A stretch of DNA of 64,000 nucleotides from an uncultured Gammaproteobacteria bacterium. GTDB lineage: Bacteria > Pseudomonadota > Gammaproteobacteria > UBA9214. The notes under the pieces were generated by a model. The model did no database searches and was not told the origin of the DNA. It saw only the letters and a program-made list of their open reading frames with translations. Where the stretch lies: positions 32,001-96,000 of the forward strand of contig CAWHCQ010000017.1 of assembly GCA_963827755.1 (NCBI GenBank), read 5' to 3'. The translations under genes and the position numbers were made by a program. Shown here piece after piece: positions 1,801-32,197 of this stretch; position 1 is the first letter of the stretch, and every line of letters starts with the position of its first letter.

Positions 1801-1907
1801 TTCCTGTCCCGGGGTGTGAAAAACGCAGCATAGGAGAATGTGTCTTCCTCAAGCAGGTCCCGTGACCGACAAGGCCTGTCGGACGATGCTGAAAAAGCGG
1901 TGGTTAG

Positions 1908-2131
1908 TCGCGGATTAGATCCGCTCCTACGCAGGGGTGGGTTGTTCATCGCGGATTAGATCCGCTCCTACAGCGCGAATGGTTTTTATGCGGGTGTTGA
2001 TCGCGGATTAGATCCGCTCCTCAGCGCGAATGGTTTTATGCGGGTGATTGATCGCGGATTAGATCCGCTCCTACAGCGCGAATGGGATCATGCGCGAATG
2101 GTTAGTTATCGCGGATTAGATCCGCTCCTAC
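1908..2131 (-). repeat. Tandem array of five 23-bp GTAG-type REPs (GTAGGAGCGGATCTAATCCGCGA on the minus strand)
   Basis: tcgcggattagatccgctcctac at 1908-1930, 1949-1971, 2001-2022 (1-nt deletion), 2052-2074 and 2109-2131; internal hairpin GCGGAT-cta-ATCCGC. Confidence 0.93.
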
Positions 2132-2147
2132 AGGTGGATGTGTCATT

Positions 2148-2170
2148 GTAGGAGCGCTTCTCAAGCGCGA
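2148..2170 (+). repeat. Variant REP, inverted relative to the array
   Basis: GTAGGAGCGCTTCTCAAGCGCGA: same GTAGGAGCG start and CGCGA end, different stem GCGCTT-ctc-AAGCGC. Confidence 0.8.
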
Positions 2171-2190
2171 TTCGTGATATTCCTGTTTGC

Positions 2191-2655
2191 ATGATTGGAA
2201 AACACCGTGCCTGTGATTTACGCAAAGGAAGGATATCACTGCCTGGTCAGCTTTATCTGGTTACAACGGTTACGAGTGGCAGGAAGGCCCTGTTTGCCAA
2301 CTTCCATGCAGGTCGTGTGGTGGTGCGGGAAATCAGGCGTTCTGAATGTTTCGGCTGGACTGACACCCTCGCATTCGTGATCATGCCGGATCATATCCAC
2401 TGGCTGTTCTCCATACAAAAAGATATTTCGCTGTCGTGCGTTGTCGGGACCGTGAAACGTCATTCAGCCAGGAAGATTAATGATTTGATTAGAAGTCGAG
2501 GATCACCTGTCTGGCAACAGGGCTTCCATGACCATGCTCTGCGCAGGGAGGAGGATGCAGTTCATGTTGCACGGTATATCGTGGCAAATCCGTTACGCGC
2601 AGGGCTTGTAGGCCGAATCGGTGATTATCCGTTATGGGATGCGGCATGGTTGTAG
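2191..2655 (+). mobile_element. rayT: REP-associated tyrosine transposase (RAYT/TnpA-REP, Y1 HUH family)
   Basis: 154 aa; LRKGR..YLVT, HUH motif MPDHIHWL, WQQGFHDHALR, catalytic Tyr in YIVANPLRAGLV; REPs on both sides. Confidence 0.92.
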
Positions 2656-4124: not shown

Positions 4125-4469
<345 letters not shown>

Positions 4470-4492
4470 TCACATAGACGGAGGAGATTCAA

Positions 4493-5757
4493 GTGGAAGC
4501 ATTAACTGAAGTGAAGTATGCGCTGGACACCTTTTACTTTTTGATGACGGGTGTCCTCGTAATGTGGATGGCCGCAGGCTTTTCGATGCTCGAGGCAGGT
4601 ATGGTGCGTGCCAAAAACACGGCCGAAATTCTGACCAAGAATATTTCCCTGTTTGCCGTCGCCAGCATTATGTACATGCTGGCGGGATACAGCATTATGT
4701 ATCCGGGCGAGGCCGTCAATGCATGGTGGCCTGGTTTTGGCGACATCCTGGGAAAGACCGACAATACGGCAGCTGAAGTACTGGCCAGTGGCGGGGATAC
4801 CTATTATTCCGGCCTGTCTGACTTCTTCTTCCAGGTTGTGTTCGTCGCAACCGCCATGTCGATTGTCTCGGGTGCCGTTGCGGAACGCATGAAGCTGTGG
4901 GCATTCCTTTTCTTTGCGGTGGTCATGACCGGTTTCATTTACCCGTTGCAGGGTTACTGGAAGTGGGGCGGCGGCGGCCTGGATGCACTCGGCTTCCTCG
5001 ACTTCGCCGGTTCCGGCGTGGTGCATTTGTGTGGTGCAACGGCAGCGTTTGCCGGTGTGCTGCTGCTCGGAGCTCGTAAGGGCAAATACCGTTCCGATGG
5101 TTCGATCAACCCGATACCAGGTGCGAACATGCCGCTGGCAACCCTCGGTACCTTCATCCTCTGGATGGGCTGGTTCGGCTTCAACGGTGGTTCAGAGCTG
5201 GTTATTTCCGATGTCGCAGAGGCCAACAATGTCGCGCTGGTATTCGTGAATACCAATATGGCAGCAGCCGGTGGCGTGATTGCCGCGATGCTGACCGCAC
5301 GCATGTTGTTCGGCAAGACCGATCTGACCATGGCGCTCAACGGCGCACTGGCCGGCCTGGTTGCCATTACTGCCGAACCGCTGACGCCGACGCCGCTGCT
5401 TGCCACCATTATCGGTGCCATCGGTGGTGTCATCGTGGTGTTCTCCATCATCAGCCTCGACAAGATGAAGCTGGATGATCCGGTCGGTGCCATCTCGGTG
5501 CACGGTGTGGTCGGTATGTGGGGGCTGCTCGCGGTTGTCCTCTCCAATCCGGATGCAACCCTGGTCGCACAGTTGACCGGACTCGGCGTGATCTTTGCCT
5601 GGACCCTGGTGGCCAGCCTGATCACCTGGGGCATTATCAAGATGGTGATTGGTATCCGCGTCAGCGAGGAAGAGGAATACGCAGGTGTCGACCTTATCTG
5701 AATGTGGCCTGGAGGCTTACCCTGAGTTTGTCGGTTCGCAGGGTTCCGGTAAGTAGT
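4493..5757 (+). CDS. amt: Ammonium transporter (copy 1), frameshift near the C-terminus
   Basis: DFAGSGVVH, GWFGFNGGS, DDPVGAISVHG; ORF stops at 5701 but the family tail ECGLEAYPEF continues in another frame to TAG at 5757. Confidence 0.93.
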
Positions 5758-5795
5758 CTTTAAAACCGGGTAAGAAGTAAGAAGTTAGTAGTATT

Positions 5796-5824
5796 AAACG
5801 GGCGCTTCGGCGCCCGTTTTTTTT
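5796..5824 (+). terminator. Rho-independent terminator
   Basis: aaacgggcgc-ttcg-gcgcccgttt plus T-run. Confidence 0.85.
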
Positions 5825-5829
5825 ATCAT

Positions 5830-6328
<499 letters not shown>

Positions 6329-6366
6329 AAATTTTCGAATAACCTATTCAACCGGGGAGAATTCCA

Positions 6367-7668
6367 ATGAGTTTTATCAAACCCAAAGGGCTGTCAGCCC
6401 TCCTTCTGAGCCTGTTCGCGGCCAGTATGCCGGCATTGGCAATGGCCGATGAACTCAGCAGTGGCGATACGGGGTGGATCCTGACGTCTACCGCACTGGT
6501 ATTGTTCATGACCATTCCGGGACTCGCGCTGTTCTATGCCGGACTGGTGCGCAGCAAGAATGTGCTCTCTGTTTTAATGCAGTGTTTTGCCATTACCTGC
6601 ATGGTGTCCATCCTCTGGTTTGCCTACGGCTATAACCTGGCCTTCGGTGATGGCGGCTACATGAATCAGTGGATGGGTGGTTTCGGCAACCTGTTCATGT
6701 CGAATGTCGACCGCGACAGTATGAGCGGCACCATTCCGGAGAGCGTGTTCGCGATGTTCCAGATGACTTTTGCCATTATTACACCGGCGCTGATCGTCGG
6801 CGGTTTTGCCGAGCGCATGAAGTTCTCGGCCATGCTGCTGTTTTCCGCTATCTGGTTGACCGTTGTCTATGCGCCGGTCTGTCACTGGGTCTGGGGTGGC
6901 GGCTGGCTTGCCGATATGGGCCTGCTGGACTTTGCCGGCGGTACGGTGGTGCATATCAATGCCGGTGTTGCGGCCATTGTTGCCGCCTTGGTGCTGGGCA
7001 GTCGCAAGGGCTTTGGCGAGGTAGCCATGCCACCGCACAACATGACCATGACCGTGGCGGGTGCTGCAATGCTCTGGGTCGGCTGGTTCGGTTTCAACGC
7101 CGGCAGTGCGCTGGCGGCGAACGGTGATGCCGGCATGGCCATGCTGGTCACGCATATCGGCGCGGCATCCGGTTCACTGGCATGGATGTTCATGGAGTGG
7201 GTGCGCCACGGCAAGCCGAGTGTGCTGGGTATCGTCACCGGCATGGTCGCCGGTCTCGGAACGATCACCCCGGCATCCGGTTTTGTCGGCCCGATGGGTG
7301 CGCTGATTATCGGCCTGACGGCGGGCGTGGTCTGCTACACGGCGACCAGCTTCATCAAGCGGACGCTGAAGATCGATGATTCCCTTGACGTGTTCCCGGT
7401 GCACGGTGTCGGCGGCGTGCTCGGGACCATGCTGGCCGGTGTATTTGTTGCCATCATGGGCGGCGTCGGCCTGGCGGAAGGCGTGACCATGGGTGACCAG
7501 GTGTGGGTGCAGTTTGTGGGTGTTGCGGCCACGATCGTTTATTGCGGTGTTTTGACCTGGGTCATTCTCAAGGTAGTTGATTTGATCGTTGGTCTTCGTG
7601 TCAGCGGGGATGAAGAGACCGAGGGTCTTGATATCGTGCTGCACGACGAGACGGGTTATAACCTGTAG
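6367..7668 (+). CDS. amtB: Ammonium transporter AmtB (E. coli-like, with signal peptide)
   Basis: 433 aa; PGLALFYAGLVRSKN, FQMTFAIIT, DFAGGTVVHINAG, GWFGFNAGS, DDSLDVFPVHG. Confidence 0.95.
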   Translation: MSFIKPKGLSALLLSLFAASMPALAMADELSSGDTGWILTSTALVLFMTIPGLALFYAGLVRSKNVLSVLMQCFAITCMVSILWFAYGYNLAFGDGGYMNQWMGGFGNLFMSNVDRDSMSGTIPESVFAMFQMTFAIITPALIVGGFAERMKFSAMLLFSAIWLTVVYAPVCHWVWGGGWLADMGLLDFAGGTVVHINAGVAAIVAALVLGSRKGFGEVAMPPHNMTMTVAGAAMLWVGWFGFNAGSALAANGDAGMAMLVTHIGAASGSLAWMFMEWVRHGKPSVLGIVTGMVAGLGTITPASGFVGPMGALIIGLTAGVVCYTATSFIKRTLKIDDSLDVFPVHGVGGVLGTMLAGVFVAIMGGVGLAEGVTMGDQVWVQFVGVAATIVYCGVLTWVILKVVDLIVGLRVSGDEETEGLDIVLHDETGYNL

Positions 7669-7692: not shown

Positions 7693-7719
7693 ACGGGCGC
7701 TTCGGCGCCCGTTTTTTTT
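7693..7719 (+). terminator. Rho-independent terminator, same hairpin as after amt copy 1
   Basis: acgggcgc-ttcg-gcgcccgt plus T-run. Confidence 0.85.
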
Positions 7720-7730
7720 GTTTTGTCTAT

Positions 7731-8523
7731 TTGTTGGGGCGCCTTGCAGGCGCTGGTTTTATTTGATGCGGGCTCTCGCGCCCGCCGGCGAGATACTTTT
7801 CTTTGCTTCGCCAAAGAAACGTATCCAAAAGAAAGGCGACCCGGAGGTGCAGCCCGAATACTCATTTTCAATGAGTATTCGGGTTCCCTGCGCTTCTCGC
7901 GAAAACCGGCGCATGCGCAACTCGCAATCTCGCTGCGCTCGAAAGCTCAGACAGGGCGCATGCTTCATCCGGTTTTCACTGCGATGCTCGGCTGCGCCTA
8001 CGGGAGGGGTAGATCAAACTCCAATCGGTGAGCCAGGTAGGATGGGTAAAGCGCAGCGTACCCATCAGGGTTCGGTGCTTTGATGGGTACGGCCTTCGGC
8101 CTTACCCATCCTACATAAAGGGAGTTGTGATTTACCCTCCCCGTAGCACTCACCGAGTACCGCAGCCAATCCGGGGAATAGCCGCGCACCCTGTCTGAGC
8201 TTTCGAGCGCAGCGAGATTGCGAGTTGTGCGCGGCCCCCGGATTGGCGAGGAACGCACGGGCAAGGCTGCGAGCGGCCTTGTAGTTCAAGCGGTGAGTGC
8301 TCCGGGTGCCTTTCTCTTTGGGTACTTTCTCTTGGGCAAGGCTGCGAAGCGGCCTTGTATATTCACGAAAGTACCTCGCCGCGCGGGCGCGAGAGCCCGC
8401 ATCCAATAAAACCGCGCCTGCAAGGCGCTCCAACAAAGAAATCGGCGGAGCGGAGAAAGGTGCCTCGCCGTGCGGGCAGCGAAAGCCCGCATCAAAAAAA
8501 ACCAGCGCCTGCAAGGCGCCCCC
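7731..8523. repeat. Large structured bipartite non-coding repeat element, copy 1: arm A 7731-8022, central REP doublet, inverted arm B 8121-8436, partial extra outer unit 8439-8523
   Basis: Arm A near-identical to 31574-31856; arm B near-identical to 31873-32148 apart from two local replacements; A and B are inverted homologues with compensatory stems. Confidence 0.9.
8037..8114. repeat. REP doublet of a second GTAG family (GTAGGATGGGTA...TACCCATC)
   Basis: GTAGGATGGGTAAAGCGCAGCGTACCCATCA ... TGATGGGTACGGCCTTCGGCCTTACCCATCCTAC; GTAG at the outer ends. Confidence 0.85.
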
Positions 8524-8531
8524 AATGGCTC

Positions 8532-8768
8532 CTACAATTTATTATGTGTCCCGTCGCAAAACGGCTTATCACTGCTGTGCTTGCAGCCGCATAGCCAGAC
8601 TTTGGTCTTTTCCGTGAGTTCGAATTTCACCGGGGTAAACTCGCTTCCCTTGTGCGAGCCGTCACAGAACGGCTGGTTTTTTGACTTGCCGCAGGCGCAC
8701 CACCAGTAGCTGCCCGCTTCCAGTTCCTGTTCATAGGGTGATTTTTGTGCAATGGTTGGCTCTGCCAT
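8532..8768 (-). CDS. CDGSH iron-sulfur domain protein (two CDGSH motifs)
   Basis: WCACGKSKNQPFCDGSH and LCGCKHSSDKPFCDGTH; start taken at MAEPTI (8768). Confidence 0.92.
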   Translation of the reverse strand: MAEPTIAQKSPYEQELEAGSYWWCACGKSKNQPFCDGSHKGSEFTPVKFELTEKTKVWLCGCKHSSDKPFCDGTHNKL

Positions 8769-17474: not shown

Positions 17475-18050
17475 ATGAAAGCTGTCGCAAAGGGTATTGT
17501 TTCGATTCTGCTGTTACCCCTGGCAATGGGTGCGCAAGCGGTGCTGGCCGAAGAGGGCAGCAGCAATAAAAACCCTGACCCGGTTGTGCAGGAGCAGGGC
17601 GCCATGGTCGAGGCTGCCGCAGCCATGGAGAACGAACAGGATACAGTGCAATACTCCGAGATGACAAAGGAAGAACAAAAACAATACAAGGCCGACATGA
17701 AGGCAGAAAAGAAGGCCGCACGCGAGCAGCTCAAGGCGGAAAAGAAGGCCGAACGCGAGCAGCTCAAGGCGGAAAAGAAGGCCGAACGCGAGCAGCTCAA
17801 GGCGGAAAAGAAGGCCGAACGCGAGCAGCTCAAGGCGGAAAAGAAGGCCGAACGCGAGCAGCTCAAGGCGGAGAAGAAGGCCGAACGCGAGCAGCTCAAG
17901 GCGGAAAAGAAGGCCGCACGCGAGCAGCGCAAGGCCGAAAGAAAGGCCGAACGTGATCGCCGCCGGGAAGAGCGCGAGCAAAAGAGGGCGATGAGGGAGC
18001 AGGATCCGAAGTATCGGCGCCCGATAGATGAGAGGTTCGAAGACTTCTAG
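17475..18050 (+). CDS. Secreted protein with an 11-residue charged tandem repeat
   Basis: RBS GGAGA, signal peptide ending AVLA, then seven KAEKKA(E/A)REQL-type units. Confidence 0.75.
   Translation: MKAVAKGIVSILLLPLAMGAQAVLAEEGSSNKNPDPVVQEQGAMVEAAAAMENEQDTVQYSEMTKEEQKQYKADMKAEKKAAREQLKAEKKAEREQLKAEKKAEREQLKAEKKAEREQLKAEKKAEREQLKAEKKAEREQLKAEKKAAREQRKAERKAERDRRREEREQKRAMREQDPKYRRPIDERFEDF
17700..17930 (+). repeat. 33-bp coding tandem repeat, 7 units plus a partial unit
   Basis: aaggcggaaaagaaggccgaacgcgagcagctc units start at 17700, 17733, 17766, 17799, 17832, 17865 and 17898. Confidence 0.95.
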
Positions 18051-31517: not shown

Positions 31518-32197
31518 TTTGTTTCGCCCTGACCGGGCGAGGCACCTTTCTCCGCTCCGCCGATTTGGTAGAAGCGCCTTGCAGGCGCTGGTTTTATTTT
31601 ATGCGGGCTCTCGCGCCCGCGCGGCGAGATACTTTTCTTTGCTCCGCCAAAGAAACGTATCCAAAAGAAAGGCGGCCCGAAGGTGCAGCCCGAATACTCA
31701 TTTTCAATGAGTATTCGGGTTCCCTGCGCTTCTCGCGAAAACCGGCGCATGCGCAACTCGCAATCTCGCTGCGCTCGAAAGCTCAGACAGGGCGCATGCT
31801 TCATCCGGTTTTCACTGCGATGCTCGGCTGCGCCTACGGGAAGGTAGGTCAACTCCCACATACTCACGGATTGGGGGTAGATTTACCCACCCGTAGCACT
31901 CACCGAGTACCGCAGCCAATCCGGGGAATAGCCGCGCACCCTGTCTGAGCTTTCGAGCGCAGCGAGATTGCGAGTTGTGCGCGGCCCCCGGATTGGCGAG
32001 GAACGCAGGGGACCGGCGTAGCCGGTGAGTGCTCCGGGTGCCTTTCTCTTTGGGTACTTTCTCTTGGGCAAGCAAGAGAAAGTACCTCGCCGAGCGGGCG
32101 CGAGAGCCCGCATCCAAAAACAACCGCGCCTGCAAGGCGCCCCAACAAACAAGCGCAGCAAAGAAAGAGCACCTAGCCCGACAGGGCGAAACCGAAA
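31518..32197. repeat. Large structured bipartite non-coding repeat element, copy 2: arm A 31574-31856, short spacer, inverted arm B 31873-32148, imperfect terminal inverted repeats
   Basis: Same A and B arms as 7731-8436; ends gtttcgccctgaccgggcg (from 31521) and gcccgacagggcgaaac (to 32192). Confidence 0.9.

What the first reader, a model, noticed from the sequence alone, without database searches (positions are those of the whole stretch)
7731..8523. Giant bipartite non-coding element: two inverted ~280-bp arms with covarying stems around an invariant 35-nt core
Seen: arm A (7731-8022) and inverted arm B (8121-8436) are homologous, but three nested stems have different sequences while remaining paired. 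Outer stem: A AGGTGCAGCC 7845-54 / GGCTGCGCCT 7990-99; B AGCACTCACC 8145-54 / GGTGAGTGCT 8292-301. Middle stem: A GAAAACCGG / CCGGTTTTC; B CCAATCCGGGG / CCCCGGATTGG. Inner stem: A GCATGCGC / GCGCATGC; B GCCGCGCAC / GTGCGCGGC. The enclosed core AACTCGCAATCTCGCTGCGCTCGAAAGCTCAGACA (7919-53; reverse complement 8192-8226) is identical in all four arms in the window. A CTGCG-N3-CTCG motif sits on both sides of the middle stem. Three more hairpins lie at the outer end of each arm. Inference: a large fold under selection, kept as a fixed A/B hetero-pair and moving as one unit. I cannot assign it to a named IS, MITE or Rfam family.
Basis: partly seen in the sequence, partly recalled or inferred. Interest (0 to 1): 0.85.

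Follow-up and report, generated by a model that had tools for sequence, protein, structure and literature searches.

The report
Triple-helix repeat doublet reusing its footprints
Two back-to-back, differently coded copies of a widespread non-coding repeat sit between two genes; they are predicted to fold as single-stranded DNA ending in a three-stranded knot and likely spread as one gene-less mobile unit that returns to the same sites and sometimes brackets foreign genes, moved by an enzyme nobody has yet found.

Summary
Confirmed. 7731-8523 is one of 12 divergent doublets in this genome, with strong covariation across the genus. It is not a wholly new family: it has the scaffold of the extended TwoAYGGAY repeats (Sept 2026 preprint) but lacks their AYGGAY loops, and this scan has noted the family before, in this genome and others. 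The 35-nt core is invariant only here. Added by this work: (1) each arm ends in a pseudoknot whose third strand copies the purine strand in parallel (74 of 79 informative cases, 0 antiparallel), with different codes in the two arms (24 of 28 typed doublets); (2) variable hairpins close with DNA-type GNA triloops (49 of 107; GNRA 1, UNCG 0); (3) relatives reuse the same spacers, in both orientations, with genome-specific copies, and 5 of 7 lone terminal hairpins lie where relatives hold the doublet; (4) some arm pairs bracket toxin-antitoxin, effector or island DNA. Best reading: a gene-less ssDNA mobile doublet moved in trans. No enzyme was found; RNA function and gene conversion remain open.

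The parts
6367..7668 (+). amtB ammonium transporter, left flank (not part of the element)
   Evidence: PF00909, E 2.7e-123
7695..7718 (+). amtB terminator hairpin plus T-run; conserved in relatives with or without the element
   Evidence: sequence; orthologous spacers
7739..7753 (+). hairpin derived from the genome's GTAG REP family GTAGGAGCGCCTTGCAGGCGCG, fixed in the arm tails of this genome and its nearest relative only
   Evidence: 38 genomic matches, most at arm ends, 4 with intact GTAG; absent from arm ends of other species
7770..7792 (-). arm A terminal hairpins (CTCGCC...); the genus-wide form is CTCGCCC-N4-GGGCGAAAC
7793..7838 (-). arm A pseudoknot with predicted pyrimidine triple helix: stem-1 strand 7835-7838, third strand 7827-7834, Watson-Crick pyrimidine strand 7813-7819, loop 7805-7812, purine strand 7797-7804 (code a)
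   Evidence: sequence; family-wide test
7845..8004 (-). arm A rod: 5' CCCG, outer stem, two CGAG-N3-CGCAG internal loops (7888-7899, 7979-7990), variable hairpin 7853-7883, middle and inner stems, apical cap 7919-7953
8005..8139 (.). spacer between the arms' 5' ends (about 50 nt in other copies), with GATCT-type motifs
8037..8114 (.). GTAG REP doublet (GTAGGATGGGTAA... family, 26 matches in genome) inserted in the spacer
   Evidence: weak naRNA4 hit below gathering
8140..8304 (+). arm B rod, homologous to arm A with different stem sequences; small insert at about 8260-8290
8305..8375 (+). arm B pseudoknot/triplex (code b, third strand 8312-8319), purine strand disrupted here by an insert at 8335-8366; intact in the second copy (32035-32085)
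8375..8436 (+). arm B terminal hairpins and REP-derived hairpin (8414-8428)
8444..8522 (+). decayed tandem copy of the arm's 3' end (pseudoknot loop, purine strand, terminal hairpins)
8532..8768 (-). CDGSH iron-sulfur protein gene, right flank, convergent with amtB (not part of the element)
   Evidence: PF09360, E 9.7e-23
31520..32195 (.). second doublet in the window, hemE-gltD spacer, with decayed outer ends on both sides
2191..2655 (+). RAYT-type Y1 transposase flanked by short GTAG REPs; candidate helper for the REP parts, not flanked by arms
   Evidence: PF01797; flanks

Best explanation
The region is a divergent pair of homologous 230-290-base arms that is likely a gene-less mobile unit, predicted to fold as single-stranded DNA into a rod plus a triple-helix pseudoknot and probably copied and inserted by an as yet unidentified enzyme acting in trans. 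Shown: the pair, its copy number, the covariation, the two triplex codes, the reuse of spacers in relatives, lone terminal hairpins at such spacers, and genes between some arm pairs. Inferred steps: (1) when the locus is single-stranded each strand presents one correctly oriented arm; (2) the enzyme reads shape (tandem G.A loops, pseudoknot-triplex, terminal hairpin), so stems drift while pairing is kept, and A/B divergence lowers the stability of the 500-base palindrome; (3) copies are lost by deletion between the two terminal hairpins, leaving one hybrid hairpin TTTCGCCC-N4-GGGCGAAA; (4) new copies go preferentially into old copies or their remains, cutting near the pseudoknot's 3' half, which leaves decayed 3' ends stacked outward, flips A/B order and keeps old sites filled with young sequence; (5) the free spacer collects REPs and sometimes whole genes. 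My guess for the enzyme class is an HUH/Y1-type single-strand nuclease, untested.
For: 12 doublets in genome, same-type arms 92% identical within a genome, 80% between genomes, other type in same genome 69%. Patchy: exact arm pattern in 13 of 37 genus genomes, triplex pattern in 19 of 400 class genomes, also Silvimonas and Desulfobacterales. Third strand exactly parallel in 74 of 79 informative distinct domains, antiparallel 0, shuffle mean 26, max 38; stem 1 fully paired in 50 of 138 versus 8.2 shuffled. Distinct variable hairpins: GNA triloop 49, GNYA 8, GNRA 1, UNCG 0 of 107; GCGNAGC mini-hairpins are far more stable as DNA than RNA (PMC13037366, passages). G-T 22 versus A-C 10 and G-A 19 versus C-T 2 in stems (my count) fix the folding strand. 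Site reuse: 23 of 36 typed doublets fall on 7 shared sites, 5 of the 7 in both orientations; copies at the orthologous hemE site are no closer (0.798) than non-orthologous ones (0.798). Lone perfect terminal hairpins: 7 sites in 4 of 37 genomes (control 2), 5 of 7 at spacers where relatives hold the doublet. Outer decayed 3' copies on 38 of 81 arms (background 121 of 3000 windows), outer worse than inner in 26, equal 5, better 8. Cargo between divergent arms: HipA module, PAAR-Tae4 module, two orphan ORFs, and an 11-kb island in this genome at a site where relatives have adjacent genes, a short doublet or a lone hairpin. All 19 triplex-positive class genomes carry a Y1 gene versus 268 of 399 overall (not corrected for genome size).
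Against: No enzyme found: no transposase, recombinase or reverse transcriptase among 150 and 97 neighbouring frames scanned (52 and 77 with Pfam hits) or among recurrent neighbours; none of 45 Y1 loci has an arm within about 1.5 kb; two arm-bearing genomes have no PF01797 match. The GTAG at the arms' 5' ends here is not conserved. H-type pseudoknots with pyrimidine triples are best known from RNA, and C.G-C triples need protonation (recalled). AYGGAY hairpins in relatives fit Csr/Rsm RNA binding (Li et al., Discussion). The energy model still prefers arm-to-arm fold-back in native pairs (-216 to -284 versus -409 to -484 kcal/mol for identical arms). Lone hairpins and tandem 3' ends can arise by slippage without any enzyme; gene conversion and inversion between arms can explain homogenisation and flips. 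Solo arms show no general low-GC DNA upstream (34 of 81, p 0.65). No clean target-site duplication or movement event was observed.
Confidence: 0.5

Rival explanations
1. The arms work as RNAs: each is transcribed, folds with an RNA-type triple-helix pseudoknot, and is either copied by a reverse transcriptase in trans or serves as a protein sponge (Csr/Rsm in AYGGAY-bearing members).
For: Pseudoknot-triplex geometry resembles telomerase-type RNA knots (recalled); Li et al. treat the family as RNAs and cite Csr/Rsm binding; 5' hexamer or heptamer stutters flank many arms; RF02421, an RT-PCR-detected Burkholderia candidate (PMC3521395, passages), gives a weak hit on one own arm (E 0.2).
Against: GNA triloops 49 versus GNRA 1 and UNCG 0; 184 of 218 distinct cores sampled have the cap of this window and no AYGGAY loop (sample was selected with that cap); no conserved promoter in the spacer; in three unstranded RNA runs of one study the arms of a Stenotrophomonas doublet had lower depth than both flanking genes and no read ends at their borders (other strain, multi-copy, weak); no PF00078 match in 2 of 5 arm-bearing genomes.
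Confidence: 0.2
2. The doublet is passive cargo of ordinary REP/RAYT traffic: REPs at its ends or in its spacer are what the RAYT cuts, so it is a giant REPIN.
For: In this genome and its nearest relative each arm tail carries a hairpin of a GTAG REP family; a RAYT lies 5 kb away; the same spacers hold REPs in other species; REP arrays follow TwoAYGGAY elements in P. fluorescens SBW25 (Li et al., section 8).
Against: Most of those tail hairpins have lost GTAG; arms of other species have no REP at their ends; it does not explain selection on the triplex and rod; two arm-bearing genomes lack Y1 matches.
Confidence: 0.15
3. Old insertions that no longer move, kept for a host role at gene ends (termination, mRNA stability, DNA topology) and homogenised by gene conversion, with flips by recombination between arms and losses by slippage.
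For: Seven spacers are shared across species; many copies sit between convergent or tandem housekeeping genes; chimeric arms show conversion.
Against: Most orthologous spacers lack it and keep their own terminator (full doublet in 2 of 21); 13 of 36 doublets are at sites seen once; copy number swings from 0 to 23 exact matches within one genus.
Confidence: 0.15

Closest known systems
Extended TwoAYGGAY elements of Pseudomonadota (Li et al., bioRxiv 10.64898/2026.09.22.753630; Rfam RF01731, Weinberg 2010 PMC2864571)
   Same: Long basal stem with side hairpin, 3' pseudoknot and terminal hairpin, GATCT-type 5' repeats, divergent doublets, REP neighbours, wide copy-number swings. One class genome (G176) holds arms with this window's A-type scaffold and two AYGGAY hairpins, and another arm with this window's cap.
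   Different: No AYGGAY loop in the core, no RF01731 match in the genome.
REPINs/BIMEs with RAYT Y1 transposases (Bertels and Rainey 2011 PMC3116915; Quentin 2018 PMC6006769; passages)
   Same: Gene-less inverted doublet as the unit, intergenic, vertical persistence, central deletions, hetero-pairs, hairpins of DNA type.
   Different: Arms ten times longer, branched, with pseudoknot; conserved ends face outward 3'; no conserved GTAG foot; no cognate gene flanked by arms found.
Intrastrand triplex repeats BoxC/PIT/TMECO (Holder 2015 PMC4666352; abstract and outline only)
   Same: Multi-copy bacterial repeat with an intramolecular triplex.
   Different: That motif is short and G/C-rich; here the triplex is T-rich, closed by a covarying pseudoknot stem and attached to a 170-base rod.
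Integron attC cassettes and pdif modules (recalled, not tested)
   Same: Folded or paired sites bracketing toxin-antitoxin and orphan genes.
   Different: No attC or dif consensus seen, no integrase nearby, most doublets are empty.

Membership tests
TwoAYGGAY (RF01731) | two hairpins with AYGGAY loops on a common stem | tested here: not met
   core has one non-AYGGAY hairpin; an AYGGAY pair occurs only as an insert in the terminal hairpin of a few arms
TwoAYGGAY (RF01731) | match to the Rfam model | tested here: not met
   0 matches at E<=1 in the genome, no control rang in that call; model does hit 7 of 150 class genomes; no Rfam family at gathering in window
Extended TwoAYGGAY scaffold (Li et al. 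2026) | elongated basal stem with side hairpin | tested here: met
   shared motifs with RF01731-positive loci L196, L192
Extended TwoAYGGAY scaffold (Li et al. 2026) | 3' pseudoknot and terminal hairpin | tested here: met
Extended TwoAYGGAY scaffold (Li et al. 2026) | divergent doublets and short 5' GMTBT repeats | tested here: met
   12 doublets; one GATCT per arm here, long arrays in Xanthomonadales members
Extended TwoAYGGAY scaffold (Li et al. 2026) | match to the authors' extended covariance model | not testable with these tools
   model not available
REPIN/RAYT | conserved GTAG/GTGG foot 5' of a short hairpin | tested here: not met
   GTAG only in some species; CCCG is the conserved part
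REPIN/RAYT | inverted doublet as unit | tested here: met
REPIN/RAYT | cognate Y1 gene flanked by the repeat | tested here: not met
   0 of 45 Y1 loci from 11 arm-bearing genomes searched
MITE (DDE type) | short terminal inverted repeats plus target-site duplication | tested here: inconclusive
   terminal hairpins at both ends have different loops; no strain-level empty site available
BoxC/TMECO triplex repeats | short G/C-rich intrastrand triplex motif | tested here: not met
   third strands are T-rich, 4-8 nt; family definition from abstract only
RF02421 Bp1_684 | score above gathering 44 bits | tested here: not met
   best 17.9 bits, E 0.2

The most novel reading that the evidence does not exclude
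A cross-phylum class of single-stranded-DNA mobile elements in which a natural DNA triple-helix pseudoknot is the recognition and insertion site of an unknown enzyme: doublets home into their own remains, the two triplex codes distinguish the two ends, and the spacer works as a cassette slot that captures toxin-antitoxin, effector and island genes. TwoAYGGAY 'RNAs' would be one capped variant of it.
Probability: 0.25. Interest if true: 0.9.

Novelty: new variant of a known kind. Interest (0 to 1): 0.62.

Why it matters
The TwoAYGGAY family has been an unexplained 'RNA' since 2010. An AYGGAY-less branch on the same scaffold shows that the named loops are optional and points to the pseudoknot-triplex as the working part. 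DNA-type loops, defined footprints and reused sites make three open questions testable with short oligonucleotides and strain comparisons: DNA or RNA, where the element's ends are, and which enzyme moves it. A biological DNA pseudoknot-triplex read by an enzyme, or a repeat that ferries defence genes, would be new.

Tried and rejected
Rfam at gathering and at E<=10: only sub-threshold hits, the best on the inserted REP doublet. Giant GTAG REP: rejected, GTAG not conserved. Coding role: ORFs over the arms differ in frame between copies and were not pursued. Neighbour hunting for an enzyme in genome, metagenome and viral loci: nothing recurrent. Phage collection: no match; plasmids: 16 records, pseudoknot head only, nearly all large replicons; viral contigs 0, 2 and 3 matches, several at contig ends. 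Antiparallel pairing of the upstream pyrimidine tract: rejected (0 of 79; an earlier looser count gave 49 parallel, 6 antiparallel, 12 ties). General cargo signal by GC content: not found. A/B divergence as full block of fold-back: not supported by the energy model. A covariance model of the whole arm was not built (too long to calibrate), so family searches rest on patterns and an HMM. Paper searches for a description of the triplex or a mobiliser found none.

Full report
Observation. Every stem, the core and the flanking motif are at the stated coordinates, and a second copy lies at about 31520-32195. The element fills the spacer between amtB and a CDGSH protein gene, after the amtB terminator. 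No Rfam family reaches its threshold. Single arms fold with z-scores near -6.

Genome survey. The 2.85-Mb genome holds 29 cores with at most two mismatches: 12 back-to-back doublets, one internal duplication, two arms at contig ends and two arms 11 kb apart on contig C4. Read 5' to 3' away from the centre, an arm is CCCG, an outer stem, two internal loops built from CGAG-N3-CGCAG, a middle and an inner stem, a cap TGTYTGAG-hairpin-CGAGTT, a variable side hairpin, then a 3' head and terminal hairpins. By my reading 9 of the 12 doublets are A plus B and three contain chimeric arms. This copy is untidy: a GTAG REP doublet sits in the spacer, two small inserts interrupt arm B (one breaks its head), and a decayed copy of the 3' end follows.

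Relatives. DNA matches were found in 23 of 24 genus genomes (many weak) and 0 of 16 from other families; an exact arm pattern occurs in 13 of 37 genus genomes. In 31 aligned arms 97.3% of cells pair and 27 of 51 pairs show changes on both sides, above all 500 shuffles and all slid registers; kinship inflates such counts. The 35-base core and the GTAG are not conserved between species. A and B are old lineages: same type in different genomes 80% identical, different type in one genome 69%, same type in one genome 92%; Stenotrophomonas doublets form their own two types on a separate branch (midpoint-rooted FastTree of 67 arms).

The 3' head. It reads stem-1 strand, pyrimidine tract, GG linker, pyrimidine strand, loop, purine strand. 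Among 147 distinct heads the upstream tract equals the parallel (Hoogsteen) copy of the purine strand in 138; in the 79 where parallel and antiparallel differ, 74 are parallel and none antiparallel (shuffle mean 26, maximum 38), over at least six purine codes. The loop pairs fully with the four bases before the tract in 50 of 138 (shuffle mean 8.2; one-base register shifts not counted). This is the geometry of an H-type pseudoknot with a major-groove pyrimidine triple helix (geometry recalled from telomerase RNA). The two arms carry different codes in 24 of 28 typed doublets; 5 more could not be typed. In eight doublets of two further species both arms start like A yet most still differ in this code.

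DNA or RNA. Of 107 distinct side hairpins 49 close with a GNA triloop, 8 with GNYA, 1 with GNRA and none with UNCG or the reverse complement of GNA (86 of 154 before removing duplicates). GCGNAGC mini-hairpins melt near 76 C as DNA, while the RNA counterpart of GCGAAAGC melts at 39 C (PMC13037366, passages). Stems tolerate G-T (22) over A-C (10) and G-A (19) over C-T (2) (my count). Three unstranded RNA runs of one study laid on a Stenotrophomonas doublet gave depth of about 0-45 per direction on the arms against mostly 50-280 on the flanking genes, with no pile of ends at arm borders; the reads come from another strain and a multi-copy family, so this is weak. Against DNA: such knots are known mainly from RNA, and AYGGAY loops of relatives fit Csr/Rsm binding.

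Relation to known families. I read the abstract and sections 8, 11, 42, 43, 44 and searched terms. [quoted passage not shown] RF01731 has no match in this genome but hits 7 of 150 class genomes. Locus L196 has this window's A-type stem, both internal loops, side hairpin, head and terminal hairpin around two AYGGAY hairpins; the same genome has an arm with this window's cap (L288), and L275 has the cap with one AYGGAY hairpin. So this is the same scaffold with another cap. The preprint's supplements were closed and may already show it. From Weinberg 2010 I saw one table row and the first seed rows.

Sites. Of 21 orthologous amtB-CDGSH spacers, two hold a full doublet (in opposite A/B order), two a centre-deleted one, one a perfect lone terminal hairpin, and the rest other repeats or little. 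The hemE-gltD spacer is filled in four genomes, in both orders, and holds other repeats in three. Of 53 loci given, 36 had a typed doublet; 23 fall on seven shared sites, five of them in both orientations, and 13 on sites seen once. Copies at the same site in two species are no closer than copies at different sites (0.798 each). The symmetric hairpin TTTCGCC-N4-7-GGCGAAA occurs alone at 7 sites in 4 of 37 genomes (reversed control 2); for 5 of the 7 both flanks match flanks of doublet-bearing loci in relatives. It is what deletion between the two terminal hairpins would leave. On 38 of 81 arms a second, usually more decayed copy of the 3' end follows at 36-43 or 84-90 bases in most cases (background 121 of 3000 windows). 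Together these fit cycles of loss and refilling at the same place; slippage, gene conversion and inversion fit them too.

Cargo. Divergent arms bracket a HipA module (L297), a PAAR-Tae4 module (L359/L360), a 250-residue and a 124-residue ORF without Pfam match (L284, L270); tandem arms bracket a HicB module (L058) and a 98-residue ORF (L378). In this genome two A arms flank an 11-kb island with soxYZ-like genes; in relatives the two outer genes are neighbours, with a short doublet in one and a lone degenerate hairpin in another (part of that output was cut). Among 190 loci from wide searches my finder scored 86 solo, 28 short doublets and 6 distant divergent pairs, and solo arms have no low-GC side, so cargo is occasional.

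Enzyme. None found. The window's RAYT is flanked by short GTAG REPs, and the arm tails here carry a mostly decayed hairpin of such a REP family, but no arm lies beside any of 45 Y1 genes and two arm-bearing genomes have no Y1 match. All 19 triplex-positive class genomes have one, against 268 of 399 (not size-corrected; the tallies include genome G075, flagged unpublished, on which no other claim rests). A reverse transcriptase was found in 3 of 5 arm-bearing genomes.

Verdict. A real, strongly selected structure; a new, AYGGAY-less variant of a family described weeks ago and noted repeatedly by this scan. I commit to a gene-less single-stranded-DNA mobile doublet moved in trans (0.5), with RNA function (0.2), REP/RAYT passenger (0.15) and immobile domesticated repeat (0.15) as rivals. 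Interest 0.62.

Noticed in passing
window 1878-2172, 2191-2655, 2656-2791, 5805-5905: RAYT-type Y1 transposase gene with arrays of its GTAGGAGCGGATCTAATCCGCG REPs; at least six GTAG REP families in the genome but only this one GTAG-flanked Y1 gene among four Y1 matches
   Followed up: partly
window 8260-8290 and 8335-8366; also G000 C4 arms, L017, L282: a 30-35-base hairpin insert (GCTGCGAAGCGGCCTTGTA type) that repeatedly sits after GGGCAA inside arms; possibly a tiny element targeting this one
   Followed up: no
G000 C4:87500, C40:74830; L006: a 50-base module with two ATGGAT hairpins inserted in the terminal hairpin of some arms; the same module is seen inside REPs of relatives
   Followed up: partly
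window 7720-8531 and orthologous spacers L163-L188: the amtB-CDGSH spacer is a hot spot for unrelated repeat families in different species, many ending at the CDGSH stop codon
   Followed up: partly
L001, L003, L004: three longer Y1 genes bounded by GGGGTCAGA-type terminal repeats, two of them broken
   Followed up: no
L494 (G000 C14): a group II intron-type reverse transcriptase frame of about 400 residues
   Followed up: no
window 17634-18022: nine tandem 33-base repeats inside a 250-residue ORF (EKKAERE-like repeats)
   Followed up: no
window 4131-7668: tandem duplication of a P-II plus ammonium transporter gene pair
   Followed up: no
L284:1843-2595: 250-residue low-GC ORF between divergent arms, no Pfam match, with an RxxxxH-like motif suggesting a HEPN domain (motif recalled)
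   Followed up: no
L066, L107: tandem arrays of four to six arms alternating with GTCATTCCCGCG-type repeats
   Followed up: no
L184, L102 spacers: the arm's own 5' heptamer (CCCGTTA type) is repeated three to four times in tandem in the spacer
   Followed up: no
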